Origin: the human T2T-CHM13v2.0 reference genome, Homo sapiens
Assembly (NCBI RefSeq): GCF_009914755.1
Contig: NC_060933.1
Length of the DNA stretch: 64,000 nucleotides
Reading direction: 5' to 3' (one strand)
The position numbers were made by a program, and so were the translations under genes. The notes beneath the pieces were generated by a model. It was not told the DNA's origin and searched no databases. It saw only the letters and a list, made by a program, of their open reading frames with translations. This document shows, piece after piece, positions 25,979 through 33,400 of this stretch. How positions within the stretch are numbered: the first letter of the stretch is position 1; each line of letters begins with the position of its first letter.

Positions 25979-27941
25979 AAAAGATGTGTACATTGTACCG
26001 AAGAAAGGGAGCGAAGAGTCAGAAGCTTTGCTACTGGTTGCCTTGGTGAGCAATAAAATTTATTTGGAGCACATGGAAACAGTAAAACCTGAAAAACACT
26101 TATGGTTTTGCCAGGAAAATGGTTTTAGTAGCCACTTTATCTCAGCCAAAACAGGAGACTGTCTTCCTGTATTTTCAGAAAGTTGCTAATGAAATCCTTG
26201 GACTCAAATTAAACAAAGCAGAAAAATAGAAGAGTCAGAGAGTGGTGAAGGCAGGTATTGGAAACTACAATCAGGCCCCCAGAACGGTGACTCTTCCTAC
26301 AAGCTCTATGTCTGCATCCGTGAGGGCATTTATTTTTAACTAATAGTTCTGGCTGCACCTCACCTCTGCGTGGGCCTGAGCATGTTTGGAAACTTGTTTT
26401 GCACGCAGCCATCTCTGTAGTTCAGTTAACACTTTCCTAGCTCACTTCATCATCAAGTGTTGCCTCACAGGCCAAAGGCAGCTCCTTGGACTGGTAAGAA
26501 TTCAATTTGGGGACCACAGTCTTTGAGTTCAAAATGGAAAGCTCATTCTCTGGAATTAGGCTGCTTCATCCAAAAAGAATACTGGCTCTCTTTGTATCCT
26601 CCCCTCTTTTCTCCTTCATGTAAATACACAAAATATTGAATGGCTGCATGAAAGATGAAAAGTGTCCGAGTCTTCATCATCAGCCAGGATTTTGCTACAG
26701 CAGCTTCATTGTCCTACCTGAACTTGTACATGGCAAATCATACTTCAGAATGCAAGCATTTAAACACAGAATATATTTTACCTACAGAAGGTCCTTTGCC
26801 ATTTTGAGTGAAAATATATAAACCTATGTCTAACTGAAAATGCTTGAAATAAAGTTGTAATCAAATTTCTTTTATTTTTTTAAAAAGAGCCTAAATTGTT
26901 TACGTCATAGCTTGTAAAAATAGTATCAGATATTGTATTTTTACTATTGTATGATGGTCACTATGTACTATGTAACATTCAGGTTAAATAGCTTTATGAA
27001 TTTTGATAAATGTTCCTCTGTAGCTCCACATGTAATTTCTCTTGCAAACTGTATAAGAATACTCCTAGAATGAGTTATGACAGATCGTTGGATCATTGTG
27101 GATCAGACCATACCTGATGTTCAGATATTTTTTCTTCCACAAATACATTTATTTAAATGACTTTTTAAAAGTGACATAAACTAATTGGGCACACTGTAAT
27201 TATCTCAGGCACCACTGCCTGAGAACTGATGTTTCTGCTGCTTTTCCCTTATCTTGACCTATTCTTCATGGTTACATGATAGTCATACACAGTATATGCC
27301 CTTGTTCATCTATAATTCAAGTGTATTCCTTTCTCTGGGCTAACATGGTTATTATTTTCTTTCCATTTGTTTTCAGAAAACAAATTTTATTTCATTACAA
27401 TGAACTGAGCATGTTTATTTATTTTAATAAGTTGTCCCTGTATAATTTTATTGTGCTACCTTTTTTATTATCCATGTCTTCAGAAAATATTATTTATTTA
27501 AGAAAGATACTCATAATACTGATGTATCATTATATTAATCTTTTTTGTAATCCAATCATTTTCTTTTATATTTCTTAAATAAACTACACTAGAATTATGT
27601 CACAAGTAAAGTTTTGTAGATCACCATCTTCTTACTGTTACTTTGTAACTGGGGAATTCTGAAATAACAATATTATTGTAGCTTATATTATTTTTCTGTT
27701 AATCAAAGATACATTTAATTAATTAGAATTTTTTCCTTTTTGTACTCAGCTTCTACCACTCTTCTATTTTGCATTAGAGAGTTCTTAAAGAAAGCTGTTG
27801 ATTGGATATAGTAAATAATTTAAAAATCAATGTTTAATATATAAAGTTTTTCTTACTAAAAAAAATCACCCAATTAAAAGTGGGCTAAAGATGGGAATGG
27901 ACATTTTGCAGAAATAAATAAACCACAAATGACCCATAAAA

Positions 27942-28252
27942 TTTTTTTTTTTTTTTGAGACCGAGTGTCACTCTGTCACCCAGGCTGGAGTACAGTGGCA
28001 CAAGTTCGGCTTACTGCAACCTCCACCTCCCAGGTTCAAGCAATTCTCATGCCTCAGGCTCTCGAGTAGCTAGGACTACAGGCACACACCACCACACCTG
28101 GCTAATTTTTGTTTCTGTTTTTGTTTTTGTTTTTAGTAGAGACAGGGGTTCCACCATGTCAGCCAGGCTGGTCTTGAACTGACCTCAAGTGATCCGCTGG
28201 CCTCGGCCTCCCAAAGTGCTGGGATTACGAGCGTGAGCCATCAGACCTGGCC
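27942..28252 (-). mobile_element. Alu (old AluS) abutting the 3' end of the RBPJ retrocopy
   Basis: Antisense Alu; TSD gacccataaa (27931-27940)/gacctataaa (28253-28262). Confidence 0.95.
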
Positions 28253-30435
28253 GACCTATAAACTCTTTTTTTTTTTCTTCTTATTCCTTGAAACTGCTCG
28301 TATTGCAAGTTTTTCATGGATGAAATATGGAATTGAGCAGATTCTTTTTTTCTACAAAATTATGGTATAAACTTGCTCAATTTTCTATCTTATTGCTAAT
28401 ACATCTTACAGGCACACAGTTTGTAAAGTAAACCCCTTAAGGGCTGAGTGCGTAGAGTGTGCTGCAAGGTACAAGAAATAAGCTAAAAGTGAGCATATAA
28501 ACCTACATCTGGACCAACACGGTACTGAATGCTGGAGTCTGAGCAAAGAATGAGTGATGAAAACAGCAAAGCTGGAAAAAAATGCTACTAATAATAATTT
28601 CTGAAAAGTCTATTAATGAAAATTTTTTCAAAATAGCCCAGGAAACCAGAAAGACAATGTTCTGTATGGAAACACTGTAGGAAGTTACAGTTTTGCATTC
28701 ATAAAGTACCGTGGCTCCTGTTTTATGAGACAGTAAAAGCTTACCACAATCTAGAGGTAGTTTTTACTCTAAGAAGGATGATTGTATTACTAGACTGTGC
28801 CGTATAATATTATGCACGTGGTTCTTGTACTAAATGTAGCCCAAAGAGTCTGCTGCAATTTTGAAGAATCCGAACAAAAGCATAACCGAAGTTCAGGAAT
28901 GAAAGCAAGGTACAACTGCCAAGTTTCGCATGCAAGGCCAACGTACAACCCTGAATGCAACCAAATCTCAGGTGAAAGGAAAAGAAACATTTTCTGAGTT
29001 AGGAGACATTTGTGGAGATGCTCAGTACTGGAGAAGAGAAAACAAAAAAGGCAGGGAAAAGAAAAATAAAAACACAAGTTACATTTGCATTTCATAATCT
29101 TACAACTATCTGTTTCTAAAGTACTGTCTTCCAGCTATTTTAGTTGATCATCTAATAAAAGCATCTTATGTTTTAAGATTACAATGATGTTCTGGCCTAG
29201 GCTACCCCCTCCAACACCCCCAAAAAGTAAAGTTAATAAAACATGCTTTTGCTGAGATCGTCCTCATTCTACCATAAGGGCACCATCTCCCAACTGGCAG
29301 CAGTTGCTTCTCATGATATTTTTGTCACTTGCCAACAAGGCAGAAAATACTCTGCTGGATGAAATCACTGGGAACATTCCAAGTTCAAAATTAAATGTTT
29401 AACTTATACGTAATACAAGTTATGTACAAGATCAGGAGCGGGGAAAAACCTGAACAAATCCTGGAACACACATAATGTATTTACGCTATGGGAAAAGGAG
29501 AGAGAACACTTCAAATATCAACATGTTCTGCACTATTAACTCATTTATGGCAAAATGGCCACACCAAATTGCATGTGAATGTTAGAACCTCTTGGATAAC
29601 CACTATAAATACTTTTTTTAAAAAAAAGGAAAATGCAGAAATAACTACCAACAGTGTCTGAGAAGAGAGACTAAGTTAACATACATTGCATGTGTTGCAG
29701 GCAAGGCAGAGGCAGCTTTTTAAAGCTTTTGCACAGACTTCACATAATCTTAAAAAAAAATGTAGGCCATCACAAGATTTGACTTGCTGAAATCCAAACA
29801 ATTTTGACTCACGAAAAGTCATAAGACTTCAGCTGGAAAAAAAAAAAGCTCTAGCCTCAGACCAAAAAAAAACTGGGAAGAACATGATAATTAAATTAAA
29901 CAAGCATGGCCAGGCTTGGAACCTGAATGTATTTTAAAGCAAAAGCTCAAAGGTGAGTGGGGAAGAGAACAACCTCTTTGGTGACAAGATGTACTATAAT
30001 ACCATGATATAAAAAAGGATATGGTGAATATGTGAAAATGTACCTTTTACTAAAGCTTATACAATATACAAGTTACGTGGTCCATAAAAACTATGTTAGA
30101 TTTATGTCTTCTAGTTTGTTCAACTTGTATTCCAGCCACATTATTTACTTCTTGCCAACTTAAACAAAACCAAACAAAAACCAACCAACCAACCAACAAA
30201 ACAGCTGAAAAAATTAATTTCCAGTAGTTTGTACATTTTGATGTTTTTTTTTGTTTTACTGTGGCTTCTGCATTTCAAATCGGCACTTGCAGATAGATAG
30301 TGGGGTTTTAGAATAGTATCACCTGGTATGAAAAGTTTTCCCAATAAACCACAAAAGACTGTTCATTTTTTTTTCCTTTTTTGTCAACTTTTTGCTGCAC
30401 TCAAGTCCGTTTGAGTCTTAGCAAAAAGACGGTAG

Positions 30436-31882
<1,447 letters not shown>

Positions 31883-32048
31883 GGTACCTCAAGAACATGT
31901 TAAGGTAAGTAACAGCTTGGAACATTTCAATGCACCTCAAAACACCTCAGCCAGTGTATCTGTATCATTCTCCTTCGTTCTGAAATAATAATGTTTCCAA
32001 AGAACCATAATGCTTCCATTTGAATGATAGTCTTATAATTTCAATGAC

Positions 32049-32151
32049 ATTCCAAAGGTTGTACAGGAAGCATGGCAGCATCTGCTTCTGGGGAGTCTTC
32101 AGGGGGCTTTTACTCGTGGCAGACAGCAAAGCAGGAGCAAGTAACTTACAT
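32049..32151 (-). mobile_element. MST (MSTA-like) LTR segment forming the 5' leader of the RBPJ retrocopy
   Basis: Minus strand reads atgtaagttacttgctcctgctttgc...ccccagaagcagatgctgccatgcttcctgtacaacctttggaa. Aligns to the MST LTR in this window (61630-61655) and stops at its GTGAG donor. Lies inside the retrocopy TSDs. Confidence 0.85.
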
Positions 32152-32199
32152 CCCCATAAACTCTTAAATGATTAGTAATCACAGACCATGATAACATAC

Positions 32200-33400
32200 T
32201 AATTTTTATGTACTGGAACAACTAAAATTAAGAGTCTGATAAGAGAAAGAAAATCCAACGTTACATGCCTCTGAATATGATTCAATAGGAAGCACACTGC
32301 ACCACCTTTGAAGTATTCTTGCCAAAAGAATATAAAACTAAAAGAACTTAAATCAACCTCTTGTTCTAACTATCAGTTTATATGTGTTAAATTATACCAT
32401 AAGGCTGCACTAAGCCAAACACAAAATGTGGGAAATTCTACAGGCGAATGACCTAGTTTTTTCTGCAAATACATGGAGTCAGGTGGGAAGAAGATATTGT
32501 GATCAATTGAAACTGTTAAAGTTAAAGAAAGAGGAAAGAAACATGAAAAGTGGCTTAAGAGTCAAAGATAGGTTTATTTTGGAGAATAAACCTGAGAGGG
32601 GCTTCTGGCCGATTTCGGTTAGGAACAGTCTCTCTTCCAGAGTAAGAGTATTTATTGGTGAGAGAGCTTATCACAGGCTTGGAATGTTTCTGTATGGGGG
32701 AGAAGCTCATGGCGGGGTTGGAATGTCTATGGTCAGAGGGGAGGTTTTCTTGGGGCTGACATCTCTCCAGCTGGAGGGGAGGTTATCTGGGGGCTGGCAT
32801 GTCTCTGGTCAGGGAGGGTTTATCCTATGGTTGGAATGTTTCTGGTTGGACATGTCATTTGTGGTTTATGGTCATGCTGACCTTAGCCATTAGGCTGATG
32901 CCCTTTGGATTTAGGTGGTTTTTGATCAAGGGGAACTTTAGAATGGTGGTACTTGTCCATGATGGCGATGCTCCTGCTCTGTCAAAAACCTCTGTCAACC
33001 AAATGCAGTGTGCGTGGACTTGTTTGTATTCTCACTGAAAAAGAGATCTATGAGACAATCATGAAAATCTGAATACCAAACATTAGATGATATTAAGGAA
33101 TTACTGTTAATTTATTTAGTTGTGTTAATGGTACTACTATCATGTATTTTAAAAGTCATTTCCCTTAAAGATACATAGCTATATATTTAAAAATGATATA
33201 ATATGATGTCTGGGGTTTGTGCTAAAATTATGCTTGAGTGTGTGTTTGTGGGAGGGATATATATGAAATTTTAAGACTACTCCATATATTTATAATTATT
33301 GAAGTAGAGTGTAAGGAATACATTGGGTTTTATTACTTTTGTCTCTACTTCCATGTATGTTTGAAAATTTTCATAATAAAAATTGTAAATAAAAGTCTAA
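32200..33400 (+). mobile_element. L1MC/ME-type 3' fragment, interrupted by an LTR
   Basis: gaagtattcttgccaaaa, aatgtgggaaattctacagg, ttagatgatattaaggaattactgttaatt, tatgtttgaaaattttcataataaaa. Confidence 0.7.
32514..32984 (-). mobile_element. LTR15-like (ERV1) solo LTR
   Basis: Reverse strand starts tgacagagcaggagcatcgccatc...ttctaaagttccccttgatcaaaaacc; TG...CA ends; TSD gaaac/aaaac. Confidence 0.85.

What the first reader, a model, noticed from the sequence alone, without database searches (positions are those of the whole stretch)
31880..32165. RBPJ retrocopy appears to record an MST-LTR-initiated, spliced germline RBPJ mRNA
Seen: the retrocopy TSD (cctataaactctt 28255-28267 / cccataaactctt 32153-32165) lies outside a ~100-nt MST LTR segment (32151-32049), and an old L1 fragment is continuous across the whole insert. 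The LTR piece was therefore part of the reverse-transcribed RNA rather than flanking DNA. It is in sense orientation with RBPJ and covers only the LTR part downstream of the promoter. Its similarity to the MST LTR elsewhere in this window (minus strand atgcttcctgtacagcctgtggaact|gtgagtc, 61655-61623) ends within 2 nt of the GTGAG splice donor, then continues into ~165 nt of unique 5' UTR and ATG GCA TGG ATT AAA AGG (MAWIKR isoform). Established: MaLR LTRs (MT in mouse; MST/THE1/MLT in primates) act as promoters and first exons in oocytes and early embryos using this internal donor, and heritable retrocopies require germline or early-embryo expression. Inference: an MST LTR upstream of parental RBPJ drove an alternative germline isoform of the Notch effector, which L1 machinery captured.
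Basis: partly seen in the sequence, partly recalled or inferred. Interest (0 to 1): 0.88.

Follow-up and report, generated by a model that had tools for sequence, protein, structure and literature searches.

The report
RBPJ pseudogene preserving an LTR-derived first exon
This dead copy of the Notch-pathway gene RBPJ was made from an old messenger RNA whose first exon came from a retroviral-type repeat (LTR) upstream of the real gene, so it is a tidy fossil of an LTR-started RBPJ transcript, which is a well-known kind of event.

Summary
RBPJP6 is an L1-type processed pseudogene on the minus strand, 28268-32152, with a 13-nt target-site duplication (12 of 13 match). Its first 104 nt (32151-32048) are MaLR/MST-like LTR sequence lying inside the duplication.

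The LTR part maps best to a sense-strand 391-bp solo LTR at chr4:26,299,394-26,299,784. That LTR is 4.3 kb upstream of a CpG island and 47.7 kb upstream of the MAWIKR exon. In the parent, the LTR match ends exactly at a GT (CC|GTGAGC) and the exon follows an AG.

Whole-segment identity alone does not single out this LTR (93/104 against 94/105 for a rival copy). Location, a rare shared 18-mer (7 genome hits against 118 for the usual form) and the kept GT donor do.

Initiation inside the LTR is likely but only inferred. The copy starts 42 nt past a TATA-like box, after one untemplated G.

Present-day oocyte activity is not shown: RBPJ is absent from one published human oocyte list of LTR-initiated transcripts. 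I could not see gene annotation for chr4.

Verdict: a real, correctly read, fairly ordinary new example of a known kind, roughly 30-55 million years old. Interest 0.35.

The parts
32153..32165 (-). 5' copy of the target-site duplication (aagagtttatggg), part of an old L1
   Evidence: matches 28267-28255 in 12 of 13 positions; invariant in all 4 chr9 copies
32152..32152 (-). one extra G between the TSD and the cDNA, templated neither by the target (t) nor by the parental LTR (c)
   Evidence: reading it as a reverse-transcribed cap G is an inference from recalled literature
32048..32151 (-). 104-nt first exon derived from a MaLR (MST-like) LTR; corresponds to positions 210-313 of the 391-bp parental solo LTR
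   Evidence: 90/104 identical to chr4 LTR (window copy), 93/104 for the less decayed paralog
31866..32047 (-). copy of the RBPJ alternative exon carrying the MAWIKR start (ATG at 31882-31880); 182 nt against 183 nt in the parent
   Evidence: 12 mismatches in 184 aligned
30436..31865 (-). rest of the RBPJ coding region, intronless and disabled by many stops and frame shifts
   Evidence: 10 parental exon hits on chr4, contiguous in the copy; translation full of stops
28277..30435 (-). copy of the RBPJ 3'UTR, lacking 1.7 kb of the present parental 3'UTR (break between 28536 and 28535)
28268..28276 (-). remnant of the poly(A) tail
28255..28267 (-). 3' copy of the target-site duplication (aagagtttatagg)
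27942..28252 (-). Alu inserted 2 nt after the 3' TSD. Its own duplication (28262-28253 / 27940-27931) overlaps the retrocopy's. It is not part of the retrocopy but explains why the 3' flank looks interrupted

Best explanation
Proposed sequence of events: roughly 30-55 million years ago, in a cell of the germ line or early embryo, L1 machinery reverse-transcribed a spliced, polyadenylated RBPJ mRNA. It inserted the copy into an old L1 on what is now chr9. Segmental duplication later made four copies.

That mRNA began inside a sense-oriented solo MaLR (MST-like) LTR lying 4.3 kb upstream of the CpG island of the RBPJ locus. It ran 104 nt to the LTR's own GT donor. It was then spliced over 47.7 kb, past the CpG island, to the acceptor of the alternative exon carrying the MAWIKR start codon, and from there through the normal RBPJ exons to the distal poly(A) site.

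Shown here:
- The LTR piece lies inside the TSD.
- The LTR-to-exon junction falls on a GT and an AG in the parent.
- The parental LTR exists, on the right strand.

Inferred:
- Transcription started in the LTR, so the LTR acted as promoter rather than only as exon.
- The expressing cell type.
- The date.
For: Retrocopy hallmarks:
- A 13-nt TSD (12 of 13 match), an A-run, and 10 chr4 coding-exon hits that are contiguous in the copy.
- Flanks colinear with L1 copies across the empty site in 2 of 4 test loci.

Split hit and splice sites:
- The split hit falls in the RBPJ locus. The chr4 LTR is the best non-self hit in two searches (about 950 and 1027 first-look candidates, 40 scored each).
- The parental LTR is a 391-bp solo LTR with a 5-bp duplication, gtttc.
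- The LTR match ends at ggaacc|gtgagc. The exon follows ...ttaag| and precedes |gtatgc.

Features that single out this LTR:
- The copy and the RBPJ-locus LTR share 4 states that are rare among 25 other family copies. One of them is seen in 0 of 25.
- The 18-mer holding two of those states occurs 7 times in the genome: the 4 retrocopies, the RBPJ LTR and 2 others. The usual form occurs 118 times.
- Only 7 of 26 family copies still have GT at the donor. The RBPJ-locus LTR does. The rival by identity (chr4:38.36 Mb) reads AT.

Evidence that transcription started in the LTR:
- The 5' end lies 42 nt past a TATA-like tttaaaag, preceded by one untemplated G.
- Franke et al. 2017 (PMC5538554, passages read) state that ERVL/MaLR LTRs carry a promoter, start site and often a splice donor near the 3' end, but no acceptor.
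Against: - Identity over the full 104 nt does not favour the RBPJ-locus LTR: 93/104 against 94/105 for chr4:38.36 Mb. In the rare-state test another copy (L055) also scored 4.
- The last LTR-derived base disagrees with the parent. It is G in the two less decayed copies and C in the parental LTR.
- The 5' end is about 17-20 nt further from the TATA-like box than the usual spacing (spacing recalled). A slightly truncated copy, or a start elsewhere, is therefore possible.
- RBPJ is not among the human oocyte LTR-initiated units in Supplementary Data 3 of PMC6102241 (0 occurrences).
- The predicted 270-nt leader holds 8 upstream ATGs, so the mRNA may be poorly translated.
- CpG retention in the parental LTR is only mildly high: 6, where the median of 24 copies is 2.5. 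Twenty of 25 copies have fewer, 2 have the same number and 3 have more.
- I saw no transcript data and no annotation of the chr4 locus.
Confidence: 0.78

Rival explanations
1. The LTR was only an exon, not the promoter. The source mRNA began at a more distal promoter, used the LTR region as an internal or extended exon, and the retrocopy is 5'-truncated within it.
For: L1-made copies are often 5'-truncated (established knowledge). The start lies further from the TATA-like box than the usual spacing. No transcript data were seen.
Against: MaLR LTRs are described as lacking splice acceptors (PMC5538554). By eye, no AG with a good pyrimidine tract lies upstream of the start in the LTR. The nearest good one (ctaag|) lies inside the copied part. 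An untemplated G sits at the 5' end. The start falls downstream of the LTR's TATA-like box in sense orientation.
Confidence: 0.16
2. The LTR piece did not come from the RBPJ locus. Either the reverse transcriptase switched templates from RBPJ mRNA to an unrelated LTR-containing RNA, or an LTR fragment was already at the target site.
For: A different family copy (chr4:38.36 Mb) is as similar over the 104 nt (94/105). Chimeric retrocopies made by template switching exist (recalled).
Against: The junction coincides with an exon's first base after AG on one side and with the family's donor position on the other. The rival copy now lacks GT there. The LTR piece is inside the TSD, and the flanks are colinear L1. 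The rare 18-mer is shared with the RBPJ-locus LTR. The chance that one of the two best of about 1000 candidates lies on the right strand within 100 kb upstream of the exon is of the order of 3 in 100,000 (my arithmetic from genome size).
Confidence: 0.04

Closest known systems
LTR-initiated chimeric transcripts from MaLR/ERVL LTRs in oocytes and early embryos (Franke et al. 2017, PMC5538554; Brind'Amour et al. 2018, PMC6102241)
   Same: A sense-oriented solo LTR upstream of a gene, a first exon of about 100 nt ending at the LTR's internal GT donor near its 3' end, and splicing to a genic acceptor tens of kb away.
   Different: Here the evidence is a fossil cDNA, not RNA data. The tissue is unknown, and RBPJ is absent from the one human oocyte list I could search.
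Processed pseudogenes as records of past splice variants (Shemesh et al. 2006, PNAS 103:1364; seen only as a reference-list entry in PMC5470649; content recalled)
   Same: A retrocopy preserves an alternative 5' exon structure of its parent.
   Different: The preserved exon is transposon-derived and carries likely promoter information. I do not know whether RBPJ was among their cases.
THE1B LTRs acting as exon 1 of fusion transcripts, for example a THE1B element 42 kb upstream of DNAJC5B (PMC11805910, passages read)
   Same: A primate MaLR LTR serves as a distant first exon for a host gene.
   Different: Those transcripts are somatic, disease-associated and seen directly in RNA-seq. This case is ancient and heritable.
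Mouse oocyte MT2B1-initiated unit overlapping Rbpj in sense (PMC6102241 Supplementary Data 1, one row seen)
   Same: An ERVL-class LTR drives sense transcription of the same gene in the germ line.
   Different: A different LTR family, a different (intragenic) position and an independent insertion in rodents.

Membership tests
L1-mediated processed pseudogene | Exons joined without introns | tested here: met
   10 separate chr4 exon hits are contiguous in the copy; the LTR exon and the MAWIKR exon are joined at GT/AG positions.
L1-mediated processed pseudogene | 3' poly(A) tract at the parental polyadenylation site | tested here: met
   the A-run at 28276-28268 follows the copy of the parental aataaa region (L030 about 1750).
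L1-mediated processed pseudogene | Target-site duplication with a TT|AAAA-like nick site | tested here: met
   a 13-nt duplication, 12 of 13 identical, at target ...cattt|aagag. The consensus nick site is recalled.
LTR-initiated chimeric transcript (LTR as alternative promoter and first exon) | LTR upstream of the gene in sense orientation | tested here: met
   chr4:26299394-26299784 on the + strand, 4.3 kb upstream of the CpG island and 47.7 kb upstream of the next exon.
LTR-initiated chimeric transcript (LTR as alternative promoter and first exon) | Splicing from the LTR's own donor to a genic acceptor | tested here: met
   the match ends at cc|gtgagc and the exon starts after ag. One base (the last of the exon) differs.
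LTR-initiated chimeric transcript (LTR as alternative promoter and first exon) | Transcription start inside the LTR | tested here: inconclusive
   The copy starts at LTR position 210, 42 nt after the tttaaaag at 161-168, preceded by an untemplated G. A truncated longer transcript is not excluded.
LTR-initiated chimeric transcript (LTR as alternative promoter and first exon) | Direct transcript evidence (RNA-seq junctions, CAGE) | not testable with these tools
   No expression data are held. RBPJ has 0 occurrences in the human oocyte list of PMC6102241. The supplements of PMC13233917 were only partly readable.
MST subfamily of MaLR LTRs | Solo-LTR anatomy: TG start, 5-bp duplication, length near 400 bp | tested here: met
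   391 bp, starts tg, ends ...ata, flanked by gtttc on both sides.
MST subfamily of MaLR LTRs | Best match to the MST consensus rather than THE1 or MLT | not testable with these tools
No repeat library is held. Genome copies found are 69-84% identical to the full LTR.
Chimeric retrocopy by template switching | Junction unrelated to splice sites | tested here: not met
   The junction falls on a donor and an acceptor.

The most novel reading that the evidence does not exclude
The chr4 LTR may be a long-maintained germ-line or early-embryo promoter of RBPJ in anthropoid primates. It would have been active when the retrocopy was made and may still be usable. It keeps a TATA-like box and a GT donor that sits in a CpG and has decayed in 19 of 26 relatives. 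Its own poly(A) signal position is altered. A separate ERVL LTR drives Rbpj in mouse oocytes. Together these would mean repeated, independent LTR capture of the Notch effector for maternal or early embryonic expression.
Probability: 0.15. Interest if true: 0.6.

Novelty: new member of a known kind. Interest (0 to 1): 0.35.

Why it matters
- It gives a dated, sequence-level record that an LTR supplied a first exon, and probably a promoter, to RBPJ, the DNA-binding effector of Notch signalling, in cells that contribute to the germ line of early anthropoids.
- It points to one specific LTR that can be checked in oocyte, embryo, testis and placenta data.
- It shows that retrocopy 5' ends can be mined for transposon-derived first exons.
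- It does not change how LTR co-option or retroposition is understood. The leader with 8 upstream ATGs makes a protein-level role uncertain.

Tried and rejected
- Ranking by identity alone. A semi-global alignment of the 104 nt put chr4:38.36 Mb one match ahead of the RBPJ-locus LTR, so I turned to rare shared states, an 18-mer count and donor integrity. My first identity script was faulty and its numbers are discarded. The first rare-state run mis-oriented minus-strand loci and was redone.
- CpG retention as a sign of long-term germ-line hypomethylation of the parental LTR: only weakly high. Not used as support.
- A 16-of-20 resemblance between the retrocopy's 5' flank and the LTR's TATA region in alignment A1. 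I judged it coincidence, because that flank is the duplicated L1 target.
- Reading the 1.7-kb gap in the 3'UTR as an intron: rejected, because the parental ends read at...tg.
- Literature searches for an LTR-RBPJ isoform or for described RBPJ pseudogenes. Nothing relevant appeared in the listings, and two candidate papers checked by passage were irrelevant. The older papers on the human RBPJ gene and its pseudogenes that I recall did not appear in these searches, and I did not look them up by id.
- Shemesh et al. 2006 is not held.

Full report
**What is in the window**

Read on the minus strand, the sequence runs as follows:
- old repeat DNA;
- aagagtttatggg (32165-32153);
- a single g (32152);
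- 104 nt of LTR-like sequence (32151-32048);
- 182 nt that end in ATG GCA TGG ATT AAA AG (32047-31866);
- the rest of an RBPJ reading frame, full of stops when translated;
- a long 3'UTR;
- an A-run (28276-28268);
- aagagtttatagg (28267-28255).

The two 13-mers agree in 12 of 13 positions. This is the anatomy of an L1-made processed pseudogene, and the LTR-like piece lies inside the duplication.

**Is the flank really one old element cut in two?**

Two nucleotides after the 3' duplication an Alu begins (28252-27942). After its A-tail the sequence resumes with tttatgggtc atttgtgg. So the same target was duplicated a second time by the Alu.

I joined the 5' flank to the DNA beyond the Alu in a script and aligned the result to four repeat copies that the flanks had found elsewhere.
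- Two (L021, L022) align colinearly across the join, at low identity and with gaps. L021 reads like L1 ORF2.
- One (L016) crosses only weakly.
- One (L015) stops short.

Both flanks otherwise occur only in four chr9 places, each holding the retrocopy. The genome therefore has no empty paralog. The continuity claim is supported, though not strongly.

**The parental locus**

A search of the window's own genome with 31880-32165 returned:
- the four chr9 copies: two at 100% (one being the window itself) and two at 97%;
- chr4:26347445-26347614 (+) for query bases 118-286 (93%);
- chr4:26299603-26299694 (+) for bases 15-106 (91%). This was the best of 35 LTR-type hits. About 950 first-look candidates were found and 40 scored.

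The rest of the coding region maps exon by exon to chr4:26.37-26.42 Mb. No other RBPJ retrocopy was found.

The chr4 LTR is a 391-bp solo element (chr4:26299394-26299784). It starts with tg and is flanked by gtttc on both sides. A CpG island lies at chr4:26,304,000-26,307,000, 4.3 kb downstream. From memory, RBPJ's main promoter is a CpG island. I could not see the chr4 annotation.

**The junction**

- In the parent, the stretch matching the copy ends ...gcggaacc and is followed by gtgagcc.
- The next exon is preceded by ...tttttaag and followed by gtatgc.
- The window copy reads ggaatg|tcattg. The two paralogs at 78.40 and 39.75 Mb read ggaacg|tcattg, so the window copy has lost a CpG there.
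- One base remains unexplained: the last LTR-derived base is G in the copies and C in the parental LTR.

I take this to be a substitution. No canonical alternative splice explains it.

**Is the RBPJ-locus LTR really the source?**

Identity alone does not say so. Over all 104 nt the less decayed paralog matches it at 93/104, and a copy at chr4:38.36 Mb at 94/105. Repeating the genome search with that paralog again ranked the RBPJ-locus LTR first among non-self hits, but narrowly.

Three other lines favour it:
- Rare shared states. Among 26 family copies, the retrocopy and the RBPJ-locus LTR share four states carried by at most 3 of the other 25, one of them by none. Another copy (L055) also scores four, mostly at sites that look like retained CpGs.
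- A rare 18-mer. The 18-mer spanning two of those states occurs 7 times in 3.1 Gb: the four retrocopies, the RBPJ LTR and two others. The form usual in the family occurs 118 times.
- Donor integrity. The donor GT sits in a CpG. Only 7 of 26 copies still read GT there (an eighth does if one shifted alignment is counted). The RBPJ-locus LTR does, and the chr4:38.36 Mb copy reads AT.

Location adds to this. One of the two best of about a thousand candidates lies on the right strand within 50 kb of the exon it is joined to. By my arithmetic from genome size, that is of the order of 3 in 100,000 by chance.

**Promoter or only exon?**

- The copy starts at LTR position 210, 42 nt beyond a tttaaaag at 161-168.
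- The extra G at the 5' end matches neither target nor parent. Extra Gs at the 5' ends of full-length L1-type insertions have been ascribed to copying of the cap (recalled, not checked).
- Franke et al. 2017 (PMC5538554, passages read) state that ERVL/MaLR LTRs carry a promoter, a start site, a poly(A) site and often a donor at a conserved place near the 3' end, but no acceptor. They also state that donors are lost with age, which fits the 7 of 26 count.
- In the parental LTR, the position where 17 of 26 relatives read aatta (the family's poly(A) signal region, by recall) reads aatga. That would favour read-through and splicing.

I put initiation in the LTR at about four in five, given that the exon was in the mRNA.

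**What the mRNA would encode**

Joined in silico from the present parental sequence, the leader is 270 nt with 8 upstream ATGs, 3 of them in the LTR exon. The MAWIKR N-terminus is a known alternative RBPJ N-terminus (recalled names: aPCR-3, RBP-2N). Efficient translation from this leader is doubtful.

**Age**

- The copy differs from the parent by 7.3% in 1880 aligned 3'UTR bases, 6.5% in the MAWIKR exon, and 8.7% (window copy, 92 aligned) to 10.6% (93/104) in the LTR exon.
- With recalled primate neutral rates, and allowing for a constrained parental UTR, this gives roughly 30-55 million years.
- The two pairs of chr9 copies differ by 1.5-2.1% between pairs and 0.1-0.3% within pairs. They are therefore later segmental duplications of one insertion.

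**Present-day activity and prior knowledge**

Six literature searches found no description of an LTR-derived RBPJ exon or of these pseudogenes.

In Brind'Amour et al. 2018 (PMC6102241; 4 spreadsheet supplements searched, 3 PDF supplements unreadable):
- the human oocyte list has no RBPJ entry;
- the mouse list has an MT2B1-initiated unit overlapping Rbpj in sense.

Supplements of PMC13233917 were only partly readable: one file was unread and one was cut at 4 million characters. They showed no RBPJ entry.

Whether RefSeq or GENCODE already models this first exon is open. If so, the isoform is known and the retrocopy merely dates it.

**Verdict**

What is there is a new, well-supported example of two familiar things combined: an LTR-supplied first exon, and a processed pseudogene that fossilised it. 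It is neat and checkable but not surprising to a specialist.

Noticed in passing
window 27931-28267: The same L1-endonuclease target was used twice. An Alu (28252-27942, minus strand) sits 2 nt after the retrocopy's 3' duplication. Its own duplication (tttataggtc at 28262-28253, tttatgggtc at 27940-27931) overlaps it. The order of the two insertions cannot be told from this sequence.
   Followed up: partly
window 28535-28536; parent chr4:26417909-26419619: The retrocopy's 3'UTR lacks 1.7 kb of the present parental 3'UTR. The parental ends read at...tg, so this is not a canonical intron. All four chr9 copies share the gap. A deletion at or after retroposition, or an odd processing event, remain open.
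   Followed up: partly
window 30436-32236 (RefSeq RBPJP6): The annotated pseudogene span does not match the insertion. It omits about 2.2 kb of copied 3'UTR (28268-30435) and runs 71 nt past the 5' duplication into the old L1.
   Followed up: yes
L035-L060 (26 family LTR copies), donor region: The family's splice-donor GT lies in a CpG (ccgtgag). Nineteen of 26 copies have lost the GT, mostly to ccatgag. Methylation decay therefore disables this donor quickly, and the RBPJ-locus copy is among the minority that kept it.
   Followed up: partly
PMC6102241 Supplementary Data 1 (mouse), row chr5:53624500-53657400: In mouse oocytes an MT2B1 (ERVL) LTR is listed as initiating a sense unit overlapping Rbpj. 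This is an independent LTR-Rbpj link in another order of mammals.
   Followed up: no
window 32146-32165 against L006:1449-1469: The retrocopy's 5' flank (tcatttaagagtttatgggg) resembles the parental LTR's TATA region (tcatttaaaagtatgtggca) at 16 of 20 positions. I judged this chance, because the flank is the duplicated L1 target.
   Followed up: partly
chr9: 39.75, 40.93, 44.05 (window) and 78.40 Mb: There are four copies of the whole insertion with its flanks, in two pairs. The pairs differ by 1.5-2.1% from each other and by 0.1-0.3% within a pair. They lie on both sides of the chr9 centromere region, consistent with pericentromeric segmental duplication.
   Followed up: partly
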